Sequence record: MH051335.1
Origin: Escherichia phage vB_EcoM-Ro157lw
Direction: 5' to 3' (one strand)
Length of the DNA stretch: 64,000 bases
The position numbers and the translations under genes are program-made. Positions 7,690 through 60,600 of this stretch are shown piece after piece. How positions within the stretch are numbered: position 1 is the first letter of the stretch; the number at the start of each line of letters is the position of its first letter. The notes beneath the pieces are model-generated. The model did no database searches and was not told the DNA's origin. It saw nothing but the letters and a program-made list of their open reading frames with translations.

Positions 7690-7965
7690 TAATGACGTAT
7701 CATCCGTATCAAGTAAGTAGTTGTTTTCAAAAGAATCTTACGGATGATACGGATGATACGCGTTGCCGCGATAATTTATAGGAATTCAAATAAATTAATT
7801 TAAAATTATATATCTAATTTAATTTTATTTTTTTATAAACTCTTATATATGAAAAGTATCCGTATCATCCGTATCATCCGTAGCACACCAGTGATAGCGC
7901 GGCTTATACACCGATACGGATAAAAATACGCCTCATTTTATCCGTATCATCCGTATCACACTAAT
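7690..7965. repeat. iteron-like direct and inverted repeats of ATCCGTATCATCCGTATCA flanking an extremely AT-rich core
   Basis: Copies at 7695-7713, 7741-7760 (inverted), 7857-7884, 7911-7921 and 7937-7960; AT-rich core 7770-7856. Confidence 0.7.
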
Positions 7966-8073
7966 TAAGGCGCGGCTATATCGGTTGTTATACATATTCA
8001 AACCATAATTATTGTTTGCCTAAGTTTTTTTCATTAGATATAATACACAATACTTATTTGAGGGTGGATGCGA

Positions 8074-11285: not shown

Positions 11286-11315
11286 ATGGGGCGTGGTCGA
11301 AAGGCTTCGCCCCAT
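11286..11315 (+). terminator. stem-loop downstream of capsid gene (ATGGGGCG...CGCCCCAT)
   Basis: 8-bp perfect stem with 14-nt loop; U-tract weak, so may act as an attenuator or RNA stabiliser. Confidence 0.4.
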
Positions 11316-15320: not shown

Positions 15321-15338
15321 GCCGCCGTAACTGGCGGC
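15321..15338 (+). other. short GC hairpin GCCGCC-GTAACT-GGCGGC between sheath and tube genes
   Basis: 6-bp perfect stem read directly; no U-tract. Confidence 0.3.
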
Positions 15339-15829: not shown

Positions 15830-16158
15830 TGTATCAAATACCACTTGACAGCGTACCTAACCAGAATATCAGCTTTAACGTTGACGGTGCTTATTGGCAG
15901 CTGCACATATTCGCCGCAATTGAGCACATGTGCGCAGATGTTTACCGCAATGGCGAATTGTTGATTCAGGGGGTACGTTGTTTTGGTGGTATACCAATGG
16001 TGCCTTATAAATATCTCATGATTGGGTACGGCAACTTTATTTTTGACAGCGTACCCGATTATGAGCATTTTAACTCTGGCGGCTGTAATTTATATTACAT
16101 GTCAGAATCTGAGTTGGCTGAATTCCAGAAAACTGCTGAAGCGGAGTTTGCAATTTGA
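15829..16158 (+). CDS. hypothetical tail protein (109 aa)
   Basis: Gene order; overlapping start/stop. Confidence 0.4.
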   Translation: MYQIPLDSVPNQNISFNVDGAYWQLHIFAAIEHMCADVYRNGELLIQGVRCFGGIPMVPYKYLMIGYGNFIFDSVPDYEHFNSGGCNLYYMSESELAEFQKTAEAEFAI

Positions 16159-17810: not shown

Positions 17811-18370
17811 TGGACTTTGTTTCGATTCTGCTTTCTGGTCAATCTCTGACCATAACGAATGAGTCGACAGGGCTTCCTGTCTGGACAAGGCTTTCTCCAG
17901 TGTCTGCAGAAATAACATCACCAGCAGAAACTACTCAATTTCCACTTGCTGGAACGGCGATGCAGGTGGTGGAAGTATCAAGCACATCCTCAGTAAGTAA
18001 TTTACAGGCGGCAAAAGTAATAATGCCAGCGCACATGGCGCTAAACGTAATTTGCAACGACCAATCGACTATTGAAAACATAATTAATACATTCGACAAT
18101 GATGAAGTCACATTTTCAATAACTTCTCGAAGCATAATTGCAAGCAAAATGTCGATGTCTGATGTCGAAATAACTCAGTCAGAAGAAAACCTGAATGGAG
18201 TCTCAATTGTAATAACATTTGAACAGACGTCATTTAGTATTCAAGGAAGCTTTGACCCTAAACAGTCCGCAGATGAATCGTCAAATGGCGTGGCTATTAA
18301 AGAGCCAGTCAGTTTGACTACAACTGTGAGTTCGTTATATAATAAAATAAAATCAACAGTAGGAATATAA
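17810..18370 (+). CDS. hypothetical tail protein (186 aa)
   Basis: Gene order. Confidence 0.4.
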   Translation: MDFVSILLSGQSLTITNESTGLPVWTRLSPVSAEITSPAETTQFPLAGTAMQVVEVSSTSSVSNLQAAKVIMPAHMALNVICNDQSTIENIINTFDNDEVTFSITSRSIIASKMSMSDVEITQSEENLNGVSIVITFEQTSFSIQGSFDPKQSADESSNGVAIKEPVSLTTTVSSLYNKIKSTVGI

Positions 18371-18791: not shown

Positions 18792-20972
18792 GTGTCTGAC
18801 TCATTAGAAAAATTTGTTCTTCAATATACGGTGGACTTGAAAGAGTCCATCAATCGTCTTGAGCAATTGCAAGATAAGGTTGATCAGACAAATAAAAAGG
18901 CAAAGGCCGCTGGTAAGGACTTCACCGGAGCATTCAAAGATGTGTTTGGTGAGCTGAAGCCTCTCACAGCTGAACTGGGGTCCATTGACGGAATCCTTGC
19001 GCGGCTTACTTACCGCTTTGCCGCGCTCGTTCCTGTTGTCGCAGGATTGGCCGTCGTCGTCAAATCCATTGTTGATGTTCGAAAAGAATATGAAGCGCAA
19101 AGGAAGCTGGGATTTGAAGCAGGTCTTTCACCAATTGGCGTGGAGCAATTACAGCGACAATTGAATGAAAGTTCAGGTGGCATTCTTGGTGCGCAGGGGT
19201 CAAGGGATTTGATCAGCAAAGCTTCTAATCTCGCATTCAACGCATACACCAACCCAGATGTGATGAACAAGGACAACTTGTTACTGAACAAGATGGGCAC
19301 TAGTCCTTTCAACAGTAACGGCGGCATCAAAGACACAAACCAGCTTCTTGATGAAATTGGCACAAAGCTGAGAAGTGTGAATGAGCAAACCGCTCGTGCT
19401 ATTGGTGCTCTGGCAGGTTTTACCGCCGATGAAGTCCGTGCGCTTCGTGAGCGAAATCAATCAGTCAAAGAAAGCACCCGTATAAGCGACGAAGAAACCG
19501 CGAAGCTGCAAAGACAGCAGGCCGCTCTTGAAACGATACGAAACAGCATGGGCCAAATTCAAGAAGACTGGCGACGCATTGAACTGGTAATCGGTGAGAA
19601 CGTGATGCCTGCATTCTCGACGCTTGTCAGCAAAACCGCCGATACAGTCGAAGGATTCCAGATGATGTTCCAAAGAATGTCTGATGGATGGTCCGAATTT
19701 GTCGACAATTTCATTGCTGACTTGAAGCACCCGTTTGATAAACAGGCGGCTGTCAACGAGCGCCACGAGCGTGCCGTTGACAGATGGATCACTCAGATGG
19801 CTGACGGCGATGTGAAACGCCAGAGGAATCAGGAGCAAAACGCGGCTGAACAACGTTCTGCGCAAGCACTTTTCACTCGCGATATAAACCTGTTTTCAAG
19901 CGCCGTTTCAACCTTTGCTGGTGTTATTGATGAGCGACAAGCGTGGGCTGCATGGGCTGGTGAGATAGGACGAAGCGCAGGCCAATCCGCAATGCCTGGC
20001 ACGCCAGCACTAAGCACTGGTGCGACCGTAGGCAACAACTTGGGGTCAGGAAATCCGACTGCATATGACTCAATCTATGAGGAAGCCTCCAAGCGTTATG
20101 GAATCCCTGTTGCGATGATGAAGGCCGTCACAGAAGTCGAATCTGGATTCAACCCTAATGCCGTAAGCGGAGCAGGCGCGACCGGACTGATGCAAATAAT
20201 GCCTTCCAACTTCAAGGGACTTGGTATCACAGACGGTAATGACCCAAGACAAAACATTATGGGCGGCGCTCAACTTCTCAAGGAATATTTAACTGCTGCC
20301 AATGGCGATTGGAATCTTGCACTGACTATGTATCACGGCGGATATGACCGCAGCGGATGGGGAAAGAACACCCGTGCATACCCTGGCAAGGTGATGGCCG
20401 CTCTCGAACGACAGGCGAATGGAGAATACGCCACGGGAGCGCCGCAAGGTGCACCAGTTACTCCAGTGCTTAGCGGTAGCGGAGTAGAAGCGCCAAAAGG
20501 CAGCTACGCTCCAGTACAGGGCCAATCCCGCCAAACGGTGCAATACAGACAGTTGCAAGAAGCAATTGCAGGATACCTAAACGTGCCAGTTGAGCAGCTG
20601 ATGCAAGGACAAGTCAACAAAGGTGATATTGACTTTGCTCAAACTTACCTTAAACTTGGAACGCAAAGGGATTATATTAAAAACATGCAGCTGGCTTCAA
20701 CTCCAGGTGTAAGGCCGAACATTCAGGCCGAAGCCATGAAGAATGCTCGTCTCGCGGCATTCCAGCTTGAAGCATTCCAGAAATACGGCGGCGACCTTTC
20801 CGCGAATAGTCGACCTGGTGGGCGTGATATTACTATGGGTCAGAAAAACGTTGTCATCAACGTCAACGGCGCTCAAGACCCAAGAAGCACGGCGATTGAG
20901 ACTAAGCGTGTGCTTGAACAAGATGATATCAACGACATAAACAACCTTACTGCTACACCTTTGAAGTGGTGA
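18792..20972 (+). CDS. tail tape measure protein with soluble lytic transglycosylase (SLT) domain
   Basis: 726 aa, coiled-coil-rich N-terminal half; SLT motifs TEVESGFNPNAVSGAGATGLMQIMPS and GGAQLLKEYL. Confidence 0.8.
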   Translation: MSDSLEKFVLQYTVDLKESINRLEQLQDKVDQTNKKAKAAGKDFTGAFKDVFGELKPLTAELGSIDGILARLTYRFAALVPVVAGLAVVVKSIVDVRKEYEAQRKLGFEAGLSPIGVEQLQRQLNESSGGILGAQGSRDLISKASNLAFNAYTNPDVMNKDNLLLNKMGTSPFNSNGGIKDTNQLLDEIGTKLRSVNEQTARAIGALAGFTADEVRALRERNQSVKESTRISDEETAKLQRQQAALETIRNSMGQIQEDWRRIELVIGENVMPAFSTLVSKTADTVEGFQMMFQRMSDGWSEFVDNFIADLKHPFDKQAAVNERHERAVDRWITQMADGDVKRQRNQEQNAAEQRSAQALFTRDINLFSSAVSTFAGVIDERQAWAAWAGEIGRSAGQSAMPGTPALSTGATVGNNLGSGNPTAYDSIYEEASKRYGIPVAMMKAVTEVESGFNPNAVSGAGATGLMQIMPSNFKGLGITDGNDPRQNIMGGAQLLKEYLTAANGDWNLALTMYHGGYDRSGWGKNTRAYPGKVMAALERQANGEYATGAPQGAPVTPVLSGSGVEAPKGSYAPVQGQSRQTVQYRQLQEAIAGYLNVPVEQLMQGQVNKGDIDFAQTYLKLGTQRDYIKNMQLASTPGVRPNIQAEAMKNARLAAFQLEAFQKYGGDLSANSRPGGRDITMGQKNVVINVNGAQDPRSTAIETKRVLEQDDINDINNLTATPLKW

Positions 20973-20976
20973 TAAT

Positions 20977-21849
20977 TTGAAAAAGAGAATCCTTAAGGTC
21001 ACCTTATCTATGCCGGATGGCACAAGCCAAGTTCTTGATGAAGGATTGATGCTCAGATGCCGAATCAAAAAGGCAGCACTTTCCGTTCAGAATAAGGCCA
21101 CGATTGAAGTCGCAGGATTAACAGGGTACTTGAGAGAGTACCTGCTTTCCAACTTCACGGCATTCAACAAACGTCTGCGTGATCAAGGTCAGTTGGCGGC
21201 GAACTACGTTAATGTGACTATTGAAGCTGGATACAGAGAAGGGAGCGTAATCAGCAGCAACTTGGTATACAAGGGACAGGTGACTACGGTGGAGATAACA
21301 GCGCCGCCGCCGAATATCGTCATCAGAATCACGTGTTATACAAACCAAATAAACAGAACGAAGTTCATAACTCAAGCCGCGCCATCCAACCCGACTTTCA
21401 AAGAGTTTGTGGAATGGTCTGCAAAGCAAATGGACATTGATACTGTTATTTGCGACACGTCGATTAACAATCAGCGCCTTGTAAACCCAGGAAGAACGAC
21501 ATATGTTGCTGCTGCGCTGCTGCTTGAGATCCAGAACTATCAACGCAACTCCATCGCGGCATACATTGATGACGATACGTTAATTGTTAAGGATAAAGAC
21601 AAAATTCTAAATCCAGACCAGATTACGGTCATTGAGGAATTTGTCGGAATACCGATGTGGAACGAGTGGGGTGCAGACTTCACTTGTATGTATAACGCAG
21701 ATTTGAAGCTTGCACAAGGTGTTAAATTCAAATCAGTCTTAAACCCAAGCTTGAACGACACCACATTTGTCATCATGCAACTTGAATATGATTTAGCGAG
21801 TCGTGATGACATATTTACGGTGACGGGCGGCGTTGCACCATCGGCATAA
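20977..21849 (+). CDS. baseplate / distal tail protein candidate (290 aa)
   Basis: Gene order after the tape measure; TTG start with RBS. Confidence 0.4.
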   Translation: MKKRILKVTLSMPDGTSQVLDEGLMLRCRIKKAALSVQNKATIEVAGLTGYLREYLLSNFTAFNKRLRDQGQLAANYVNVTIEAGYREGSVISSNLVYKGQVTTVEITAPPPNIVIRITCYTNQINRTKFITQAAPSNPTFKEFVEWSAKQMDIDTVICDTSINNQRLVNPGRTTYVAAALLLEIQNYQRNSIAAYIDDDTLIVKDKDKILNPDQITVIEEFVGIPMWNEWGADFTCMYNADLKLAQGVKFKSVLNPSLNDTTFVIMQLEYDLASRDDIFTVTGGVAPSA

Positions 21850-21851
21850 AT

Positions 21852-22373
21852 ATGAGAAAGAATAAAATAATCGACTTGTTTGGCGTAACTTATGAAATTC
21901 ATCAATTCAGCGCAATAGATGCATTTGAAATGGTCGATGACATAAGTATATTAACCCCACTTGAATTATTGAGTGAATGTTATGTAATAAAATACGACGG
22001 GTCCAAAGTAAGGCTTAATTCTGAAAAAGTAATTAGTGAAGAAGTGAAAAGTATTCCTAATCACTTGCCGCCTAATCTTGTGTTGAAAGTGTTAATGGAA
22101 GCCGTTAAAAAGCACAACTTTGGATTCCTTAGCGATTGGAAAAGCACCAAAATTCCAAATAGATTCTTGGCGGATGCACCGACAGTAGAGCCTAATTATC
22201 TTGAGCCAATGGTTGCAAGTCTAATAAATAACGGCCTTGCATCTTTAAAGGAGTTGGAAGAATACTATTCACTGCGTGATGCATTTGCTATGTTTGATGG
22301 TTTAATAGCAAAATCACTTAATGAAGCCTACTCAAACGAAGCTGCCATTAAAGAATCAAAGTCAAATCGCTAA
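21852..22373 (+). CDS. hypothetical baseplate-region protein (173 aa)
   Basis: Gene order. Confidence 0.4.
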   Translation: MRKNKIIDLFGVTYEIHQFSAIDAFEMVDDISILTPLELLSECYVIKYDGSKVRLNSEKVISEEVKSIPNHLPPNLVLKVLMEAVKKHNFGFLSDWKSTKIPNRFLADAPTVEPNYLEPMVASLINNGLASLKELEEYYSLRDAFAMFDGLIAKSLNEAYSNEAAIKESKSNR

Positions 22374-22383
22374 AATATTGCTT

Positions 22384-22432
22384 ATAGACTCCTTATAGAT
22401 TATAATTTGTTGATCAGATATAAGGAGTCTAT
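22384..22432 (+). promoter_or_regulatory. 14-bp perfect inverted repeat whose right arm contains the Shine-Dalgarno and start codon of the next gene
   Basis: ATAGACTCCTTATA at 22384-22397 and TATAAGGAGTCTAT at 22419-22432; loop contains TATAAT. Confidence 0.4.
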
Positions 22433-23159
22433 GATGGCAGAAAAGTTAACCCAACTTACAAGCCCCAACCAAACTGACAAATCAAGTATGTTTGCCGCGC
22501 TTCAGGGAATGCTGGACCGTGGCAAGTATACCACTGATGGCATGATTCCTGCGCAAGTAATATCTTATGACCGCAAGAAAAATTTAGCAGTCATAAAACC
22601 TGTTATTCATTTCGTAAGTCTTGATGATAAGCCAGTGGAGCGTCAACCTTTGGTGTCAATTCCGGTACTGGCAATCGGCGGCGGCGGATTCGTGATCAAC
22701 TTCCCTTTGAAGGAAGGCGACTTGGGCTGGATATTCGCTGGCGACCGCGAGTTGTCGACATTCCTTGAAGAATTGAAGCCGACCGCGCCTACCAATGGCC
22801 GTGTAAAAACTTTCGCTGATGGACTGTTCATACCGGATGTATTCCGAAAATACACCATAAGCGGAGAGGATGCAGGGTCAATGGTAATTCAATCCCTCAG
22901 CGGCGCTGTGAGAATTGCACTAAGCGATGACTCAATAAACATAACTGCGTCTTCTGGAGTAAACGTCAAGACCCCGATAACCACTATCGATCAACAACTG
23001 ATAGTAAATGGAAAGGCAACATTCAATGGTGGGATAGAAGGCAAAGAAGGAACGACGGCAACGCTTCCGACTGGCACAACGGTCGGCGGCATTGATGTAT
23101 CCACTCACGGGCATATCGGTAACGGGCCTGGAAACAGAACTGGGAATATGATAGAATGA
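22431..23159 (+). CDS. baseplate hub / spike protein candidate (gpV-like)
   Basis: Gene order; Gly-rich C-terminus with HGHIGNGPGN; RBS AAGGAG. Confidence 0.45.
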   Translation: MMAEKLTQLTSPNQTDKSSMFAALQGMLDRGKYTTDGMIPAQVISYDRKKNLAVIKPVIHFVSLDDKPVERQPLVSIPVLAIGGGGFVINFPLKEGDLGWIFAGDRELSTFLEELKPTAPTNGRVKTFADGLFIPDVFRKYTISGEDAGSMVIQSLSGAVRIALSDDSINITASSGVNVKTPITTIDQQLIVNGKATFNGGIEGKEGTTATLPTGTTVGGIDVSTHGHIGNGPGNRTGNMIE

Positions 23160-24427
23160 GTGCACAATATTCTTACATAGTAAGCACTGGTGTGATCACC
23201 ATTGACACGGCAGATTTATTGGCTGATGTTCAAGGTGAATGGATTGAGTCTTTAGGGGTCGGGCTTGATGTTGATGCTTCGACGCCGCAAGGCACGCTAA
23301 TCGCAACAGAGACGTTGGCAAGAACTTCAGTGATGAAGAATAATGCCGAATTGGGAAGTCTCATCAACCCTAACTACTCATATGGAGTATACCTTGATGC
23401 AATCGCGGCGCTTCTTGGCATCGAGCGCACAAAGAATGTAAGCACAATGTTGAAAGGTGTGACTGCAGAGGGAACGCCGCTGCTGGAAATTCCTGCTGGA
23501 AGTCTTCTTACTGATTCAAATGGTACATACTGGTATGTGCTGGAAGACGTTCAAATCACTTCGACTGGCAAGACAAGCAACATGACTCTTGCGTCAAAAG
23601 ATTATGGCTCATTTACCGTTGCGCCTGATGAAGAGTTTACAGTGGTGCAAGGTTATGACGTCATCGGATGGTCAAGAACGTATTCAACATCAGCAACGAC
23701 GACCGTGCCAGGCACCCAATACATGGGCGACGGAGCATTAAAGGCCGCTCGCGTTAAGCGTCTTTACCAGCAGGGCATCGCATCACTTGGTGCCATCCGC
23801 GCTCGCGCCATGTCTGTCGACGGTGTAGAGTCTGTGATGGTCGTGGAGAATGACACAGGAGCGCCTGGAACGGTGCGCGGCATTACCTTCTCAACGCCTA
23901 ACGGTGTTTGGGTATGCGCAAGCGGAACATTTGACAAGCAAGTGTTTGCGGAGACGATATTCAAGGCGAAGATGGGTGGTCAACCTTGGGACTTTGGCGC
24001 TACTAATCAAGGAAATCCGGTAAACTCGCCTGATGGAATCGAAGTGGTCGATGCAGAATCACAGTTGTCTTATTTCGTCAAATTTAACACTGCAGTGATA
24101 TATGATTTGTATGTTGACATAACCGTTTCAAGAGGAACGGCGACCGCTGATGCAGAGTCCATTATTGCCGCTGTACTAAATTACGGAAATGGCAATTTTA
24201 ACGGTGAGCAGGGATATACAGTAGGCCAATCTCAATCTTCTTTTGAAATTGCTTCGGCAGTATCCTGCGAATATCCAGGACTTTATATCAAAGATTGCAA
24301 AATTGCAGCAGTTAAAAGCGGACAGGCAGCGCCAACTTATCCTTCCGATTATGGCAGCGAGTGGATTGCCAATCCTTGGGACAAGGCCAATACTATGCGC
24401 GGCTTCATCAACGTTAAATTTGTGTGA
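23156..24427 (+). CDS. baseplate wedge protein candidate (gpJ-like)
   Basis: 423 aa, overlapping start with upstream gene; gene order. Confidence 0.45.
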   Translation: MSAQYSYIVSTGVITIDTADLLADVQGEWIESLGVGLDVDASTPQGTLIATETLARTSVMKNNAELGSLINPNYSYGVYLDAIAALLGIERTKNVSTMLKGVTAEGTPLLEIPAGSLLTDSNGTYWYVLEDVQITSTGKTSNMTLASKDYGSFTVAPDEEFTVVQGYDVIGWSRTYSTSATTTVPGTQYMGDGALKAARVKRLYQQGIASLGAIRARAMSVDGVESVMVVENDTGAPGTVRGITFSTPNGVWVCASGTFDKQVFAETIFKAKMGGQPWDFGATNQGNPVNSPDGIEVVDAESQLSYFVKFNTAVIYDLYVDITVSRGTATADAESIIAAVLNYGNGNFNGEQGYTVGQSQSSFEIASAVSCEYPGLYIKDCKIAAVKSGQAAPTYPSDYGSEWIANPWDKANTMRGFINVKFV

Positions 24428-27182: not shown

Positions 27183-28970
27183 ATGCCAACACTTATTAAC
27201 AGACCTTTCGCGCAAAGCGGTGATGTATCCGTGGTGCCGGATGCAAGCCCAAGCGGTTATGTAAACTTCCAGCGCGGCTACACCCCTGACTATGCGCTTG
27301 CTCTGGAGGCCGGAAACGTCGCCGCGAAAGCTGTTGAGCGCGAATCGATGAACTGGTTGCTGAATTTGATTACAGACAACCTTATGTTTATTCAAGATCA
27401 TGGTGCTCAACAATATTTCTCTTCTGACTTGAAGCCGGATGGATACCCGAAAAATGCCATTGTTGTCAGCAACTCTGGAACGCCTTCAGCGCCTGAGTGG
27501 CGCATCTTTCAAAGCGTGGTCGACGGCAACACAAGCGCCGTACCAGCTAACGGAGAAACGGAATCTTGGCAGGAATTAACGCTGCCCAGCGAAGCGCGAA
27601 AATACATTCCGATGCCTGCCGGAGGCGATGCGCAAAACCCGTACTTCGTTCGCGGATTGATTTCAAGCTTTGTGGACTTCGATAATATTACGACTTCCAC
27701 AACTATCGTCATTCAATCCGATGCCGTCGCCGCTCTGTGCTCTAACATCCCGAATGCGGTTGGCGCGACGAAGGTTGCAGGTCGCCTTCAGGTTTGCGCT
27801 TGGCAGGTCGATGCGCAAACCTTTGCCTTGCAGCAATATACATCAATGAATGGCTATTTGTTTACCCGCTCTTACACTTCTGGTGCTTGGAGTGCTTGGA
27901 TTCAAAATGCCACTGTTCAAGACGTGCAAATTGGAACGCCGAATCTTGCATCAGGTAAAGGAGCGCAAGACATAATCCTTACCGTCCCAGCAGGTTATTC
28001 ATGGCCTCCGTCAGCAGGTAGTCGCCTGACAATCGTCAATGATGTAACGACTACCGGACCTGTCACCGTGACCATTGGTGTAAACAAAGTTGCCGTTCTT
28101 GGATTCGACGGCGGCGAGTTGCCAGCTGGCGCTATCGTAGGCTTGCTGCCATTCACCATCATTTATGACGGCACTGTTTGGCGTCTCCTTCAGGCGTTTG
28201 GCGCGGCGCAAATCGGCGTTGATGCTACTGAGGCGCAACAGTTTGTTACAAAGCGCCAACTCGATGCTTTGGCTGCGAAATTGATCACTATGGGCGACGT
28301 ATTCGAAGTCGGTGAGACTCGATTCCTCACCAACGGAACAGACCCGAATACTAAACTGGGCGCTTACGGCCAGGTATGGACACGACTTCCTGATAACATG
28401 GTCATCAGAACATCTGGCACGGCGCGAAACGGTCTTGCCACTGGCGGCGCGGACTCTGTTACTCTCACCGCTGCAATGCTTCCTCTCCACAATCACAGCG
28501 TGAACATTACCACGCGACAAAGTGGTCCATGGTCTAATACCACTGGAGATGCTGGAAATCACAACCACACAGGTGATACAAGTCAAAACGGTGCTCACGT
28601 GCATGGAATGGATACGGCAGGCAACCATCACCATGACAGCAGCTGGGGTGAAGCCAATACTAGCGATGCGCGGTACGGCGTTTATGATGGGACACACAAC
28701 AACTTCGGAAGTCGCAAAGGCGGCGACTGGGATAACTACAAATACAACACTTCGACTAACGGCAACCACGTCCATAATATTCAATCTTCTGGATCACACA
28801 CCCATGGGTTGAATATAAATTACGCTGGCAATCACAGCCACAGTTATACCCTTCCCGCTCACACTCATGATGTGGTCGGTAACACTGGCGATGCAGGACA
28901 GTCGGTGCCAACGGCTGTTGCGACTTTGCCGCGATACGTTGTTTTGAATGGCTGGTACAGAAGCGCATAA
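27183..28970 (+). CDS. tail fibre protein with His-rich HxH repeat region near the C-terminus
   Basis: Repeated HNH, HNHT, HVHG, HHHD, HVHN, HTHG, HSHS, HTHD motifs around residues 440-560, like metal-binding HxH fibre tips. Confidence 0.55.
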   Translation: MPTLINRPFAQSGDVSVVPDASPSGYVNFQRGYTPDYALALEAGNVAAKAVERESMNWLLNLITDNLMFIQDHGAQQYFSSDLKPDGYPKNAIVVSNSGTPSAPEWRIFQSVVDGNTSAVPANGETESWQELTLPSEARKYIPMPAGGDAQNPYFVRGLISSFVDFDNITTSTTIVIQSDAVAALCSNIPNAVGATKVAGRLQVCAWQVDAQTFALQQYTSMNGYLFTRSYTSGAWSAWIQNATVQDVQIGTPNLASGKGAQDIILTVPAGYSWPPSAGSRLTIVNDVTTTGPVTVTIGVNKVAVLGFDGGELPAGAIVGLLPFTIIYDGTVWRLLQAFGAAQIGVDATEAQQFVTKRQLDALAAKLITMGDVFEVGETRFLTNGTDPNTKLGAYGQVWTRLPDNMVIRTSGTARNGLATGGADSVTLTAAMLPLHNHSVNITTRQSGPWSNTTGDAGNHNHTGDTSQNGAHVHGMDTAGNHHHDSSWGEANTSDARYGVYDGTHNNFGSRKGGDWDNYKYNTSTNGNHVHNIQSSGSHTHGLNINYAGNHSHSYTLPAHTHDVVGNTGDAGQSVPTAVATLPRYVVLNGWYRSA

Positions 28971-60240: not shown

Positions 60241-60600
60241 ATACGCGTAAAATACGGCTAAAAATTAAGCGTATCATGGCTGCAGGCCGCGCCGTTCCTG
60301 GATTCATCCTTTCCAAATTGGTACACCCTTACGTCATGATACGTCATGGTTTTTTATCCGTATCAGTGTACAGCCCTTGCCGCGCCTGGCTTGTACATTA
60401 ATCTTACGGATGATACGGATAAAACTGGGCATCGTTATATATATAATTTGAAAAATTAATTAACTCCATTTTGAATTAATTTAAATTAATTTTTTCTACA
60501 TCCTCATACTTATGTTAATTTATATATTTAACGTATTATCCGTAAGATATAAGTAAAAACAAAGACTTGCGGCAATACGGATGATACGTCATGATACGCT
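60241..60600. repeat. second iteron-like region: ATCCGTATCA-family repeats flanking an AT-rich core
   Basis: TTATCCGTATCAG, CTTACGGATGATACGGATAAAA, TTATCCGTAAG, ATACGGATGATACGTCATGATACG read directly; AT-rich core 60431-60520. Confidence 0.7.

What the first reader, a model, noticed from the sequence alone, without database searches (positions are those of the whole stretch)
22384..22432. Perfect 14-bp inverted repeat able to sequester the ribosome-binding site of the baseplate spike gene
ATAGACTCCTTATA and TATAAGGAGTCTAT pair exactly, and the right arm contains the AAGGAG Shine-Dalgarno and the ATG at 22431. The 21-nt loop contains TATAAT. This looks like a translational control hairpin, or a promoter embedded in a structure that sets the stoichiometry of a low-copy baseplate component.
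Basis: seen in the sequence. Interest (0 to 1): 0.4.

Follow-up and report, generated by a model that had tools for sequence, protein, structure and literature searches.

The report
Promoter nested in RBS-masking hairpin

Summary
The window is a Wifcevirus (Lindbergviridae) E. coli myophage. The 14-bp perfect inverted repeat (22384-22397 / 22419-22432, 21-nt loop) is exactly as described. It folds at -26.7 kcal/mol (z = -6.4) and ranks second of 21,310 windows in this sequence.

The left arm fills the 17-nt spacer of a sigma-70-type promoter, TTGCTT-N17-TATAAT. The right arm holds the Shine-Dalgarno and the start codons of the spike gene.

In the relative Pseudomonas phage 14-1, a published transcription start (P018) was mapped at the same junction. 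It lies 19 nt before the spike ATG, and the promoter was reported active in E. coli and P. aeruginosa.

RNA started at the predicted site (about 22413) lacks the left arm, so the Shine-Dalgarno is open (P unpaired 0.81). Read-through RNA from upstream masks it (0.001).

All 23 lineages carry a -10 box at this junction. In 15 of the 23, with unrelated arm sequences, the DNA upstream of the start site pairs with the spike leader (Fisher p about 4e-17). Other promoters of the structural gene module tested do not show this.

This is the logic of T4 genes e, soc, 49 and I-TevI, so it is a new member of a known kind. No start site or expression data exist for this phage. The stoichiometry idea is unsupported.

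The parts
21852..22373 (+). Upstream gene of 173 aa (PHROG 4774, unknown function); stop codon TAA at 22371-22373.
   Evidence: ORF list and PHROG match at 1e-72. It has no PDB relative and is absent from the quoted part of the vB_Eco4M-7 virion mass-spectrometry table, which lists gp58 and gp60 but not gp59. It is syntenic in all relatives.
22342..22349 (+). Outer helix, 5' strand (CUGCCAUU), inside the upstream gene. It pairs with 22433-22440 in long read-through RNA and also covers the second AUG.
   Evidence: Fold of 22325-22470: -34.4 kcal/mol, z = -4.8. The stretch 22329-22373 is invariant in 12 Wifceviruses, including synonymous sites. Ribosomes translating the upstream gene would open this helix (inference).
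22378..22383 (+). Predicted -35 hexamer TTGCTT (3 of 6 matches, TTG conserved), 17 nt from the -10 box.
   Evidence: Read from the sequence. Relatives have TTTACT, TTTACA or TTTACC at the same 17-nt spacing. That is the -35 seen in the mapped sigma-70-like promoters of 14-1.
22384..22397 (+). Left arm ATAGACUCCUUAUA, containing the anti-Shine-Dalgarno CUCCUU. It fills the promoter spacer, so it lies upstream of the predicted transcription start.
   Evidence: geometry relative to the promoter.
22401..22406 (+). -10 hexamer TATAAT in the hairpin loop.
   Evidence: In the relatives whose -10 box could be placed, a -10 box lies mostly 21-32 nt before the spike start, and 17 of the 27 sequences scanned have a perfect TATAAT. 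It is positionally homologous to the TATACT of 14-1 promoter P018.
22412..22414 (+). Predicted transcription start, most likely A22413. Inferred, not measured.
   Evidence: It is the 7th-8th base after the -10 box. In 14-1 the mapped start (28318) is the 8th base after TATACT and 19 nt before the spike ATG.
22419..22432 (+). Right arm UAUAAGGAGUCUAU in the 5' leader. It contains the Shine-Dalgarno and the first two bases of the first ATG.
22422..22427 (+). Shine-Dalgarno AAGGAG.
   Evidence: Probability unpaired is 0.001 in read-through RNA and 0.81 in RNA starting at 22413.
22434..23159 (+). Baseplate central spike gene (241 aa from the ATG at 22434; an alternative in-frame ATG lies at 22431).
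   Evidence: Pfam PF18352 at 3e-15. PDB 8eon_F 'Baseplate spike gp43' of phage E217, three chains, E = 2e-55. Most annotated relatives start at the second ATG.
18314..18343 (+). Upstream sigma-70-like promoter candidate (TTGACT-N18-TATAAT, 11 of 12 matches), a plausible source of read-through RNA. It belongs to the model, not to the element itself.
   Evidence: Consensus scan and sequence. It is positionally analogous to 14-1 P016/P017, upstream of the gene that precedes the lytic tail protein. No convincing terminator lies between it and 22384.

Best explanation
The inverted repeat and the TATAAT form one device: a host-type (sigma-70) promoter nested inside a hairpin that masks the ribosome-binding site.

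- RNA polymerase arriving from upstream promoters of the tail module transcribes both arms. The resulting stem of 14 or more base pairs buries the Shine-Dalgarno and start codon, so the spike gene is poorly translated from read-through polycistronic RNA.
- RNA polymerase that initiates at TTGCTT-N17-TATAAT starts at about 22413, inside the loop. That RNA lacks the left arm, has a leader of about 21 nt with a free Shine-Dalgarno, and is translated.
- Spike synthesis, and probably that of the downstream wedge genes, therefore depends on this promoter and not on upstream transcription.

What is shown: the repeat, its thermodynamic exceptionality, its position relative to the promoter hexamers, its conservation, and the arm-level co-variation across lineages. 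What comes from the literature: the start site and the promoter activity in the orthologous 14-1 junction. What is inferred: the start site in this phage, the existence of read-through RNA, and the translational outcome.
For: (1) Structure. The fold is -26.7 kcal/mol with z = -6.4, and the element ranks second of 21,310 windows.

(2) Geometry. The left arm equals the promoter spacer and the right arm equals the leader.

(3) Orthologous promoter. 14-1 P018 has its start site at 28318 on the + strand. It is classed sigma-70 and marked as experimentally validated. Transcription unit TU018 covers gp42 (spike) and gp43 (supplementary tables S3 and S5 of bioRxiv 10.1101/2023.10.13.562163). Its activity in E. 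coli and P. aeruginosa is reported in PMC10914365. The start site falls between the two arms of the 14-1 stem.

(4) Accessibility. The probability that the Shine-Dalgarno is unpaired is 0.001 in RNA starting at 22250 or 22330, and 0.78-0.84 in RNA starting at 22410-22416.

(5) Conservation of the architecture.
- All 23 distinct lineages keep a gap of about 35-85 nt with a -10 box before the spike gene. They include Wifcevirus, Myosmarvirus, Kylevirus, Pbunavirus, Carpasinavirus, Salmonella phage PCSE1 and IMG/VR contigs.
- In 15 of the 23, the segment upstream of the predicted start pairs with the leader better than shuffles at p < 0.05 (Fisher p = 4e-17).
- In a swap test, a lineage's own upstream segment is the best partner in 11 of 23 cases, against 1 expected.
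- The arm sequences are unrelated between lineages, which amounts to co-variation of whole arms.

(6) Specificity. The pairing is absent at 14-1 P013, P014, P016, P017 and P019, and at the window's promoter candidates at 8016-8044 and 18314-18343.

(7) Strand. The + strand RNA duplex is more stable than its - strand mirror in 12 of 15 lineages (Wilcoxon p = 0.03).

(8) Reach of the ribosome. The left-arm helix starts 5-23 nt after the upstream stop codon in 13 of 14 lineages. A terminating ribosome should therefore not open it, or should open only its first few pairs (ribosome footprint from general knowledge).

(9) Purifying selection. Only 2 of 60 intergenic bases vary, against 28-41% at third codon positions.

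(10) Precedent. T4 genes e, soc, 49, I-TevI and segB, and mobE of phage Aeh1, work this way (PMC3014915 and PMC2988022).
Against: - No start site, transcript map or expression measurement exists for any Wifcevirus. The start site is transferred from a phage whose spike protein is only about 44% identical.
- The -35 hexamer matches in only 3 of 6 positions, and the consensus scan did not list this promoter.
- Read-through from upstream has not been shown. The 14-1 long reads from P016/P017 ended after about 1 kb, a length limit the authors acknowledge.
- Because the leader is only about 20-30 nt long, any repeat that brackets the -10 box and the start site must overlap the translation initiation region. 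Overlap with the Shine-Dalgarno therefore does not by itself prove selection at the RNA level.
- The G-U counts are inconclusive and the strand-asymmetry test is weak (p = 0.03, and some lineages are related).
- Eight of the 23 lineages show no significant pairing.
- One Wifcevirus (vB_Eco4M-7) carries an uncompensated A-to-C change in the right arm.
- In T4 the device separates early from late expression. Here both flanking modules are structural genes, so the selective benefit is not obvious.
Confidence: 0.62

Rival explanations
1. Plain translational attenuator. Every spike mRNA contains both arms, and the hairpin simply lowers spike translation to fit a low copy number.
For: The hairpin is very stable and buries the Shine-Dalgarno and AUG. 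The spike is a trimer, with three chains in 8eon.
Against: The orthologous junction in 14-1 has a mapped and validated start site between the arms. A -10 box is conserved at that position in 23 lineages. A stem of -24 to -27 kcal/mol that leaves the Shine-Dalgarno unpaired with probability 0.001 would nearly abolish translation rather than tune it. Yet the spike was well detected in vB_Eco4M-7 virions, with 79% sequence coverage.
Confidence: 0.08
2. DNA-level element. The two arms are binding sites for a dimeric regulator, or extrude as a cruciform, and so control the promoter that lies between them.
For: The repeat brackets the -10 box and the start site, a classic position for an operator. 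Most arms are perfect Watson-Crick repeats and would be equally symmetric as DNA. The G-U counts do not separate the two readings.
Against: - The arm sequence is unique in the window, whereas regulators usually have several sites.
- Arm sequences, lengths (7-19 bp) and their positions relative to the -10 box differ in every lineage. This is hard to reconcile with a conserved DNA-binding protein.
- Spacers of 20-30 bp disfavour cruciform extrusion (general knowledge).
- The + strand RNA is more stable than its mirror in 12 of 15 lineages.
- 14-1 P018 was reported active in uninfected E. coli and P. aeruginosa with no phage factor present. The cloned fragment ended before the right arm.
Confidence: 0.1
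3. RNA processing or stability element. The hairpin is an RNase III site, or a 3'-end protective stem for the upstream mRNA, and masking of the ribosome-binding site is incidental.
For: With its extensions the window stem is about 24 bp long, which is within the range of RNase III substrates (general knowledge). It follows a stop codon and has no U-tract, like intercistronic stabiliser hairpins.
Against: Stems in other lineages are only 7-12 bp, as in Pbunavirus, L030, L035 and L055; that is too short for RNase III (general knowledge). No 3' end was called at this site in 14-1. The idea explains neither the conserved -10 box between the arms nor the start site there.
Confidence: 0.1
4. Translational coupling device. 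Ribosomes finishing the 173-aa gene melt the hairpin, so that spike translation on polycistronic RNA is tied to translation of the upstream gene.
For: The outer helix 22342-22349 / 22433-22440 lies inside the upstream ORF and would be opened by translation. In Salmonella phage PCSE1 the left arm starts at the stop codon.
Against: In the window the perfect 14-bp core starts 11 nt after the stop codon, and in Hera and Kyle the core starts 20-23 nt after it. That is beyond the reach of a terminating ribosome (general knowledge). Every other gene junction in this module achieves coupling simply by overlapping or abutting the stop and start codons.
Confidence: 0.05

Closest known systems
Phage T4 genes e (lysozyme), soc, 49, I-TevI/II/III and segB, and mobE of phage Aeh1: an RBS-sequestering hairpin with a late promoter inside it
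   Same: [quoted passage not shown] A promoter sits so that its transcripts lack the 5' strand of the helix and are translated (PMC3014915 and PMC2988022). The window has the same anatomy.
   Different: - The promoter here is a host sigma-70 type, not a T4 gp55 late promoter (TATAAATA).
- The phage family is unrelated (Lindbergviridae).
- The regulated gene is a baseplate spike inside a co-directional structural module rather than a late gene embedded in early or middle transcripts. The benefit is therefore probably operon insulation rather than delayed timing, which is an inference.
- Nothing has been measured in this phage.
Pseudomonas phage 14-1 promoter P018 and transcription unit TU018 (Putzeys et al. 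2024)
   Same: It is the orthologous junction: PHROG 4774 gene, then a gap, then the spike gene. It has a -10 box at the same distance from the ATG and a 10-bp stem (UGGGAAGGCU / AGGCUUUCCCA) whose left arm lies upstream of the mapped start site.
   Different: The sequence is unrelated and GC-rich. The stem is shorter and not significant by whole-region folding (z = -1.9 to -0.25), though it is significant in the two-segment test (p = 0.002-0.004). The main text of the paper gave no hit for gp42, and none of its 'hairpin' or 'secondary structure' passages concerns this junction.
Phage P2 late promoter PV, which heads the V-W-J-I-H-G baseplate and tail-fibre operon (recalled from general knowledge, not tested here)
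   Same: The gpV-type spike gene is the first gene of its own transcription unit, followed by the gpJ-type wedge gene.
   Different: PV depends on the Ogr activator and is not known to be nested in a hairpin that masks a ribosome-binding site.
T4 gene 25 (baseplate) stem at its translation initiation region
   Same: It is a conserved stem at the translation start of a baseplate gene.
   Different: As I recall it (not in the passages read here), that stem lies between the Shine-Dalgarno and the AUG and brings them closer together, which enhances initiation. It is not a promoter-dependent mask.

Membership tests
T4-type promoter-in-hairpin translational gate (e, soc, 49, I-TevI) | [quoted passage not shown] | tested here: met
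   The fold is -26.7 kcal/mol with z = -6.4. The probability that the Shine-Dalgarno is unpaired is 0.001 in RNA starting at 22250 or 22330. This is a computation only; no structure probing was done.
T4-type promoter-in-hairpin translational gate (e, soc, 49, I-TevI) | A promoter is placed so that its transcripts start inside the hairpin and lack the 5' arm. | tested here: inconclusive
   TTGCTT-N17-TATAAT has its spacer equal to the left arm. The -10 box is conserved in 23 lineages. The start site was mapped between the arms in the orthologous 14-1 junction. The start site has not been measured in any Wifcevirus.
T4-type promoter-in-hairpin translational gate (e, soc, 49, I-TevI) | Promoter-initiated RNA has an accessible ribosome-binding site. 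| tested here: met
   The probability that the Shine-Dalgarno is unpaired is 0.78-0.84 for starts at 22410-22416. Leader accessibility is higher in the short RNA than in the long RNA in most lineages.
T4-type promoter-in-hairpin translational gate (e, soc, 49, I-TevI) | Upstream-initiated transcripts really do read through the site. | not testable with these tools
   No convincing terminator was predicted between 18343 and 22384. None of the 14-1 transcript 3' ends (TTS) seen in the tables lies on the + strand of the structural region. No transcript data exist for this phage.
T4-type promoter-in-hairpin translational gate (e, soc, 49, I-TevI) | Translation differs between the two classes of transcript (about 100-fold for T4 gene e). 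| not testable with these tools
   This needs reporter fusions, toeprinting or ribosome profiling.
T4-type promoter-in-hairpin translational gate (e, soc, 49, I-TevI) | The internal promoter belongs to a later temporal class than the upstream promoters. | not tested
   Both the internal promoter and the upstream candidate look sigma-70-like. No temporal data are available. If they belong to the same class, this would be a functional variant that insulates operons rather than one that sets timing.
Intrinsic (Rho-independent) terminator | A GC-rich stem followed directly by a U-tract. | tested here: not met
   The stem is AT-rich and is followed by GAUGGCAGAAAAG, with no U-run. The terminator scan did not list it.
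Any curated RNA family (Rfam 15) | A match to a covariance model. | tested here: not met
   No match at E <= 1 in 22250-22550 on either strand.

The most novel reading that the evidence does not exclude
The promoter-in-hairpin may be a family-wide boundary between operons that needs no terminator. By blocking spike translation on read-through RNA, it would expose untranslated RNA to Rho. That would end the upstream tail, tape-measure and hub transcription unit inside the spike gene, and leave the spike and wedge operon to its own host-type promoter. The device would be rebuilt with new arm sequences in each genus. One lineage (L055) even pairs it with what looks like a leaderless mRNA.
Probability: 0.2. 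Interest if true: 0.6.

Novelty: new member of a known kind. Interest (0 to 1): 0.45.

Why it matters
It gives a concrete, testable rule for how the spike and wedge operon is expressed in Lindbergviridae. This family includes the Pbunavirus phages, which I know to be widely used in Pseudomonas phage therapy, and the O157-targeting Wifceviruses.

It also shows that the T4 trick of placing a promoter inside a hairpin that masks the ribosome-binding site exists outside T4-like phages. Here it uses a host sigma-70 promoter and is maintained by co-variation of whole arms across many genera.

There is a practical consequence. Anyone who refactors or reboots these genomes, or moves the spike gene, should keep the promoter and the left arm together. 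Otherwise spike expression could become dependent on read-through.

Finally, it adds a post-transcriptional layer to the published 14-1 transcription map. That map reported promoter P018, but the paper's text gave no sign that the structure around it was noticed.

Tried and rejected
- Repeated-element idea. I searched the window for other copies of the arm with up to 3 mismatches and found none beyond chance. The list of inverted repeats shows no second element of this type.
- Co-variation within the genus. The region is almost invariant in 12 Wifceviruses, so no compensatory changes are available. I therefore moved to comparison between genera.
- IMG/VR scan with a single protein. It returned only Wifceviruses. 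A five-sequence alignment was needed to reach 56 loci.
- The 14-1 alternative 'CTGGG' promoter motif also occurs in the Pbunavirus gap. I rejected it for this site because table S3 classes P018 as sigma-70, and the mapped start fits the TATACT box and not CTGGG + 5.
- G-U versus A-C counts in whole-region folds did not discriminate between the strands. The two-segment duplex comparison gave only weak support for the + strand.
- Intrinsic terminator: rejected, because there is no U-tract.
- Rfam: no match.
- Earlier PB1-like and Wifcevirus genome papers mention neither this promoter nor the hairpin.
- PRS-1, the most divergent Pbunavirus record, is flagged unverified and appears to have an indel next to the ATG, so I did not use it.
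- Burkholderia phage BCSR129 has a different downstream gene and an ambiguous fold, so I left it out.

Full report
**What the window is.** The region 21800-23200 is 99.6% identical to Escherichia phage EC150 and 91-99% identical to 27 other records of the genus Wifcevirus, family Lindbergviridae. The local gene order on the + strand is as follows:
- lytic tail protein (18792-20972);
- baseplate hub (20977-21849; Pfam E217_GP41, 1e-118);
- a 173-aa protein of unknown function (21852-22373; PHROG 4774);
- a 57-60 nt gap;
- the central spike (22434-23159);
- a baseplate J-like wedge protein (23156-24427).

The spike assignment is firm. The protein matches PDB 8eon_F, 'Baseplate spike gp43' of phage E217, at E = 2e-55. 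That entry holds three such chains. It also matches phi92 gp138.

**The observation.** The repeat is exactly as reported:
- The arms lie at 22384-22397 and 22419-22432, are 14/14 complementary, and have 21 nt between them.
- TATAAT is at 22401-22406, AAGGAG at 22422-22427, and ATG codons at 22431 and 22434.
- The second ATG has the better spacing (6 nt) and matches the M-A-E/N start of orthologues. Most annotators chose it.
- As RNA, the 72-nt region folds at -26.7 kcal/mol against -10.2 +/- 2.6 for shuffles (z = -6.4).
- It ranks second among 21,310 windows of 72 nt on both strands once GC content is regressed out.
- The arm sequence is not a dispersed repeat.
- In 12 Wifceviruses only 22412 and 22420 vary between 22374 and 22433. 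Third codon positions of the two flanking genes vary at 41% and 28%. The non-coding stretch is therefore under strong purifying selection, but the genus offers no compensatory changes.

**What lies between the arms.** The same gene order, with a gap only at this junction, occurs in several other genera: Serratia phage Hera, Erwinia phage TropicalSun, Pantoea phage Kyle, Salmonella phage PCSE1, Xanthomonas phage Carpasina and the Pbunaviruses. It also occurs in dozens of IMG/VR contigs. In the lineages whose -10 box could be placed, a TATAAT-like box lies mostly 21-32 nt before the spike start codon. It is a perfect TATAAT in 17 of the 27 sequences scanned. Many have TTTACT or a close variant 17 nt upstream.

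For Pbunavirus 14-1 this promoter has been found experimentally.
- Table S3 of Putzeys et al. lists '14-1 P018, TSS 28318, +, sigma70, this work'. Table S5 lists TU018 running from 28318 and covering gp42 (spike) and gp43.
- The main text reports significant reporter activity of P018 in P. aeruginosa. It names only P011, P032 and LUZ19 P006 as inactive in E. coli.
- In the 14-1 sequence the start is the 8th base after TATACT and lies 19 nt before the ATG.

Transferred to the window, the promoter is TTGCTT (22378-22383), a 17-nt spacer, then TATAAT (22401-22406), with a start at about A22413. The left arm is the promoter spacer itself and the right arm is the 5' leader.

**Consequence for the RNA.** RNA that begins at 22250 or 22330 has the Shine-Dalgarno unpaired with probability 0.001. 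RNA that begins at 22410-22416 has it unpaired with probability 0.78-0.84. In longer RNA a further helix, 22342-22349 with 22433-22440, also covers the second AUG. Translation of the upstream gene would open that helix. The perfect 14-bp core starts 11 nt after the stop codon. From general knowledge of the ribosome footprint, that is at or beyond the reach of a terminating ribosome.

**Is the architecture selected?** The arm sequences are completely different in other genera, yet the same arrangement recurs. Examples:

| Lineage | Left arm | Right arm |
|---|---|---|
| Kyle | ACCTCTTACAGTA | TACTGTAAGAGGT |
| L042 | TCTCTCCCGGTG | CACCGGGAGAGA |
| L051 | ACTCCATGAC | GTCATGGAGT |
| L061 | GCACCCGCT | AGCGGGTGC |
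| 14-1 | GGGAAGGC | GCUUUCCC |

Hera has a 16-17 bp stem whose left arm includes the -10 box.

I ran an alignment-free test. For each lineage I split the region at the predicted start site and computed the best duplex between the upstream part and the leader.
- The native duplex beats 500 shuffles at p < 0.05 in 15 of 23 lineages (Fisher combined p = 4e-17).
- When upstream parts are swapped between lineages, a lineage's own upstream part is the best partner in 11 of 23 cases, against 1 expected.
- Whole-region folding gives a similar picture: 17 of 28 sequences have p < 0.05.
- The pairing is specific to this promoter. It is absent at the five other mapped + strand promoters of the 14-1 structural region, and at the window's two other promoter candidates that have short leaders.
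- The + strand RNA duplex is more stable than its - strand mirror in 12 of 15 lineages (p = 0.03). This weakly favours selection on the RNA rather than on a DNA palindrome. Simple G-U counts did not help.

**Mechanism and rivals.** The best-supported reading is a transcript-origin filter. Read-through RNA from upstream promoters carries a masked spike start, while RNA from the nested promoter carries an open one. A strong upstream candidate lies at 18314-18343, positionally equivalent to 14-1 P016/P017. I put this reading at about 0.6.

The rivals, in brief:
- **Attenuator acting on all spike mRNA (0.08).** It conflicts with the mapped orthologous start site and with the good detection of the spike in virions.
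- **DNA operator or cruciform (0.10).** It is hard to square with arms that are unique in the genome and differ in every lineage, and with spacers of 20-30 bp. In addition, P018 was reported active without any phage factor.
- **RNase III or stabiliser hairpin (0.10).** It is possible for the long Wifcevirus stem but not for the 7-12 bp stems elsewhere. It also ignores the conserved promoter.
- **Ribosome-mediated coupling (0.05).** In most lineages the left-arm helix starts several to 23 nt after the stop codon; in the window the perfect 14-bp core starts 11 nt after it.

The idea that the block goes on to trigger Rho-dependent polarity, and so marks an operon boundary, is pure inference.

**Comparison with what is known.** This is the design described for T4 genes e, soc, 49, I-TevI/II/III and segB, and for Aeh1 mobE. 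In these, upstream transcripts form an inhibitory helix at the ribosome-binding site, and a late promoter immediately upstream gives transcripts that lack the 5' strand (PMC3014915 and PMC2988022).

Three things differ here: the type of promoter (host sigma-70), the phage family, and the context (a structural gene inside a co-directional structural module). The papers I could search that deal with PB1-like phages and Wifceviruses do not mention the structure, and Rfam has no matching family. I therefore file it as a new member of a known kind.

The membership features that can be computed are met. The position of the start site is supported by homology only. Read-through, the difference in translation, and the temporal class of the promoters remain untested.

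**Verdict.** Interest is moderate. It is not a new principle, but it is a cleanly testable module conserved across a phage family, and its promoter has already been mapped experimentally in a relative.

Noticed in passing
window 7693-7764, 7895-7966, 60352-60424, about 60550-60600: Two long intergenic regions hold clusters of direct and inverted repeats of TGATACGGAT(G/A). One of them (7693-7764) is the top-ranked hairpin of the whole window. They look like iterons or operators, or sites near the genome ends or an origin.
   Followed up: no
window 22329-22373: The last 45 bases of the 173-aa gene show no variation at all in 12 Wifceviruses, synonymous sites included. The stretch contains the 5' strand of an outer helix (22342-22349) that pairs with 22433-22440. 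It also lies where a promoter UP element would sit.
   Followed up: partly
L055 about 1520-1560 (IMG/VR contig 3300048898_000066): The TATAAT box is only 6 nt before the spike ATG (M-A-N-Q...) and there is no Shine-Dalgarno, so the promoter's transcript would be leaderless. Even so, the AUG lies in a 9-bp inverted repeat (AGCCATCCGT / ACGGATGGCT) that brackets the -10 box.
   Followed up: partly
L062 1510-2087 (IMG/VR contig 3300013306_000117): An insert of about 0.5 kb separates the PHROG 4774 gene from the spike gene. The TAGAAT box and an 11-bp inverted repeat (AGAATAGGCC / GGCCTATTCT) have stayed right next to the spike GTG start.
   Followed up: partly
window about 16015-16065 (+): A perfect stem of about 16 bp (CTCATGATTGGGTACG ... 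CGTACCCGATTATGAG) lies inside a coding sequence of the tail module. It is among the 10 most exceptional folds in the window.
   Followed up: no
window 11288-11314 and 15321-15338: GC-rich hairpins without clear U-tracts follow the 379-aa gene (probably the major capsid protein) and the 512-aa gene (probably the tail sheath). Apart from the spike gap, these are the only other gaps in the 21-kb structural module. They may be attenuators or RNA stabilisers.
   Followed up: no
window 21852-22373: The conserved 173-aa protein has no PDB relative. In the passage of the vB_Eco4M-7 virion mass-spectrometry table that I saw, gp58 and gp60 are listed but gp59 (this protein) is not. It may be a non-structural assembly factor placed between the hub and the spike.
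   Followed up: partly
L014 2162-3459 (phage LMA2 gp42, wedge gene): The record annotates a run of 7-9 G that varies between subpopulations and gives a putative frameshift at the start of the wedge gene, just downstream of the spike. This would be another layer of control on the same operon in Pbunavirus.
   Followed up: no
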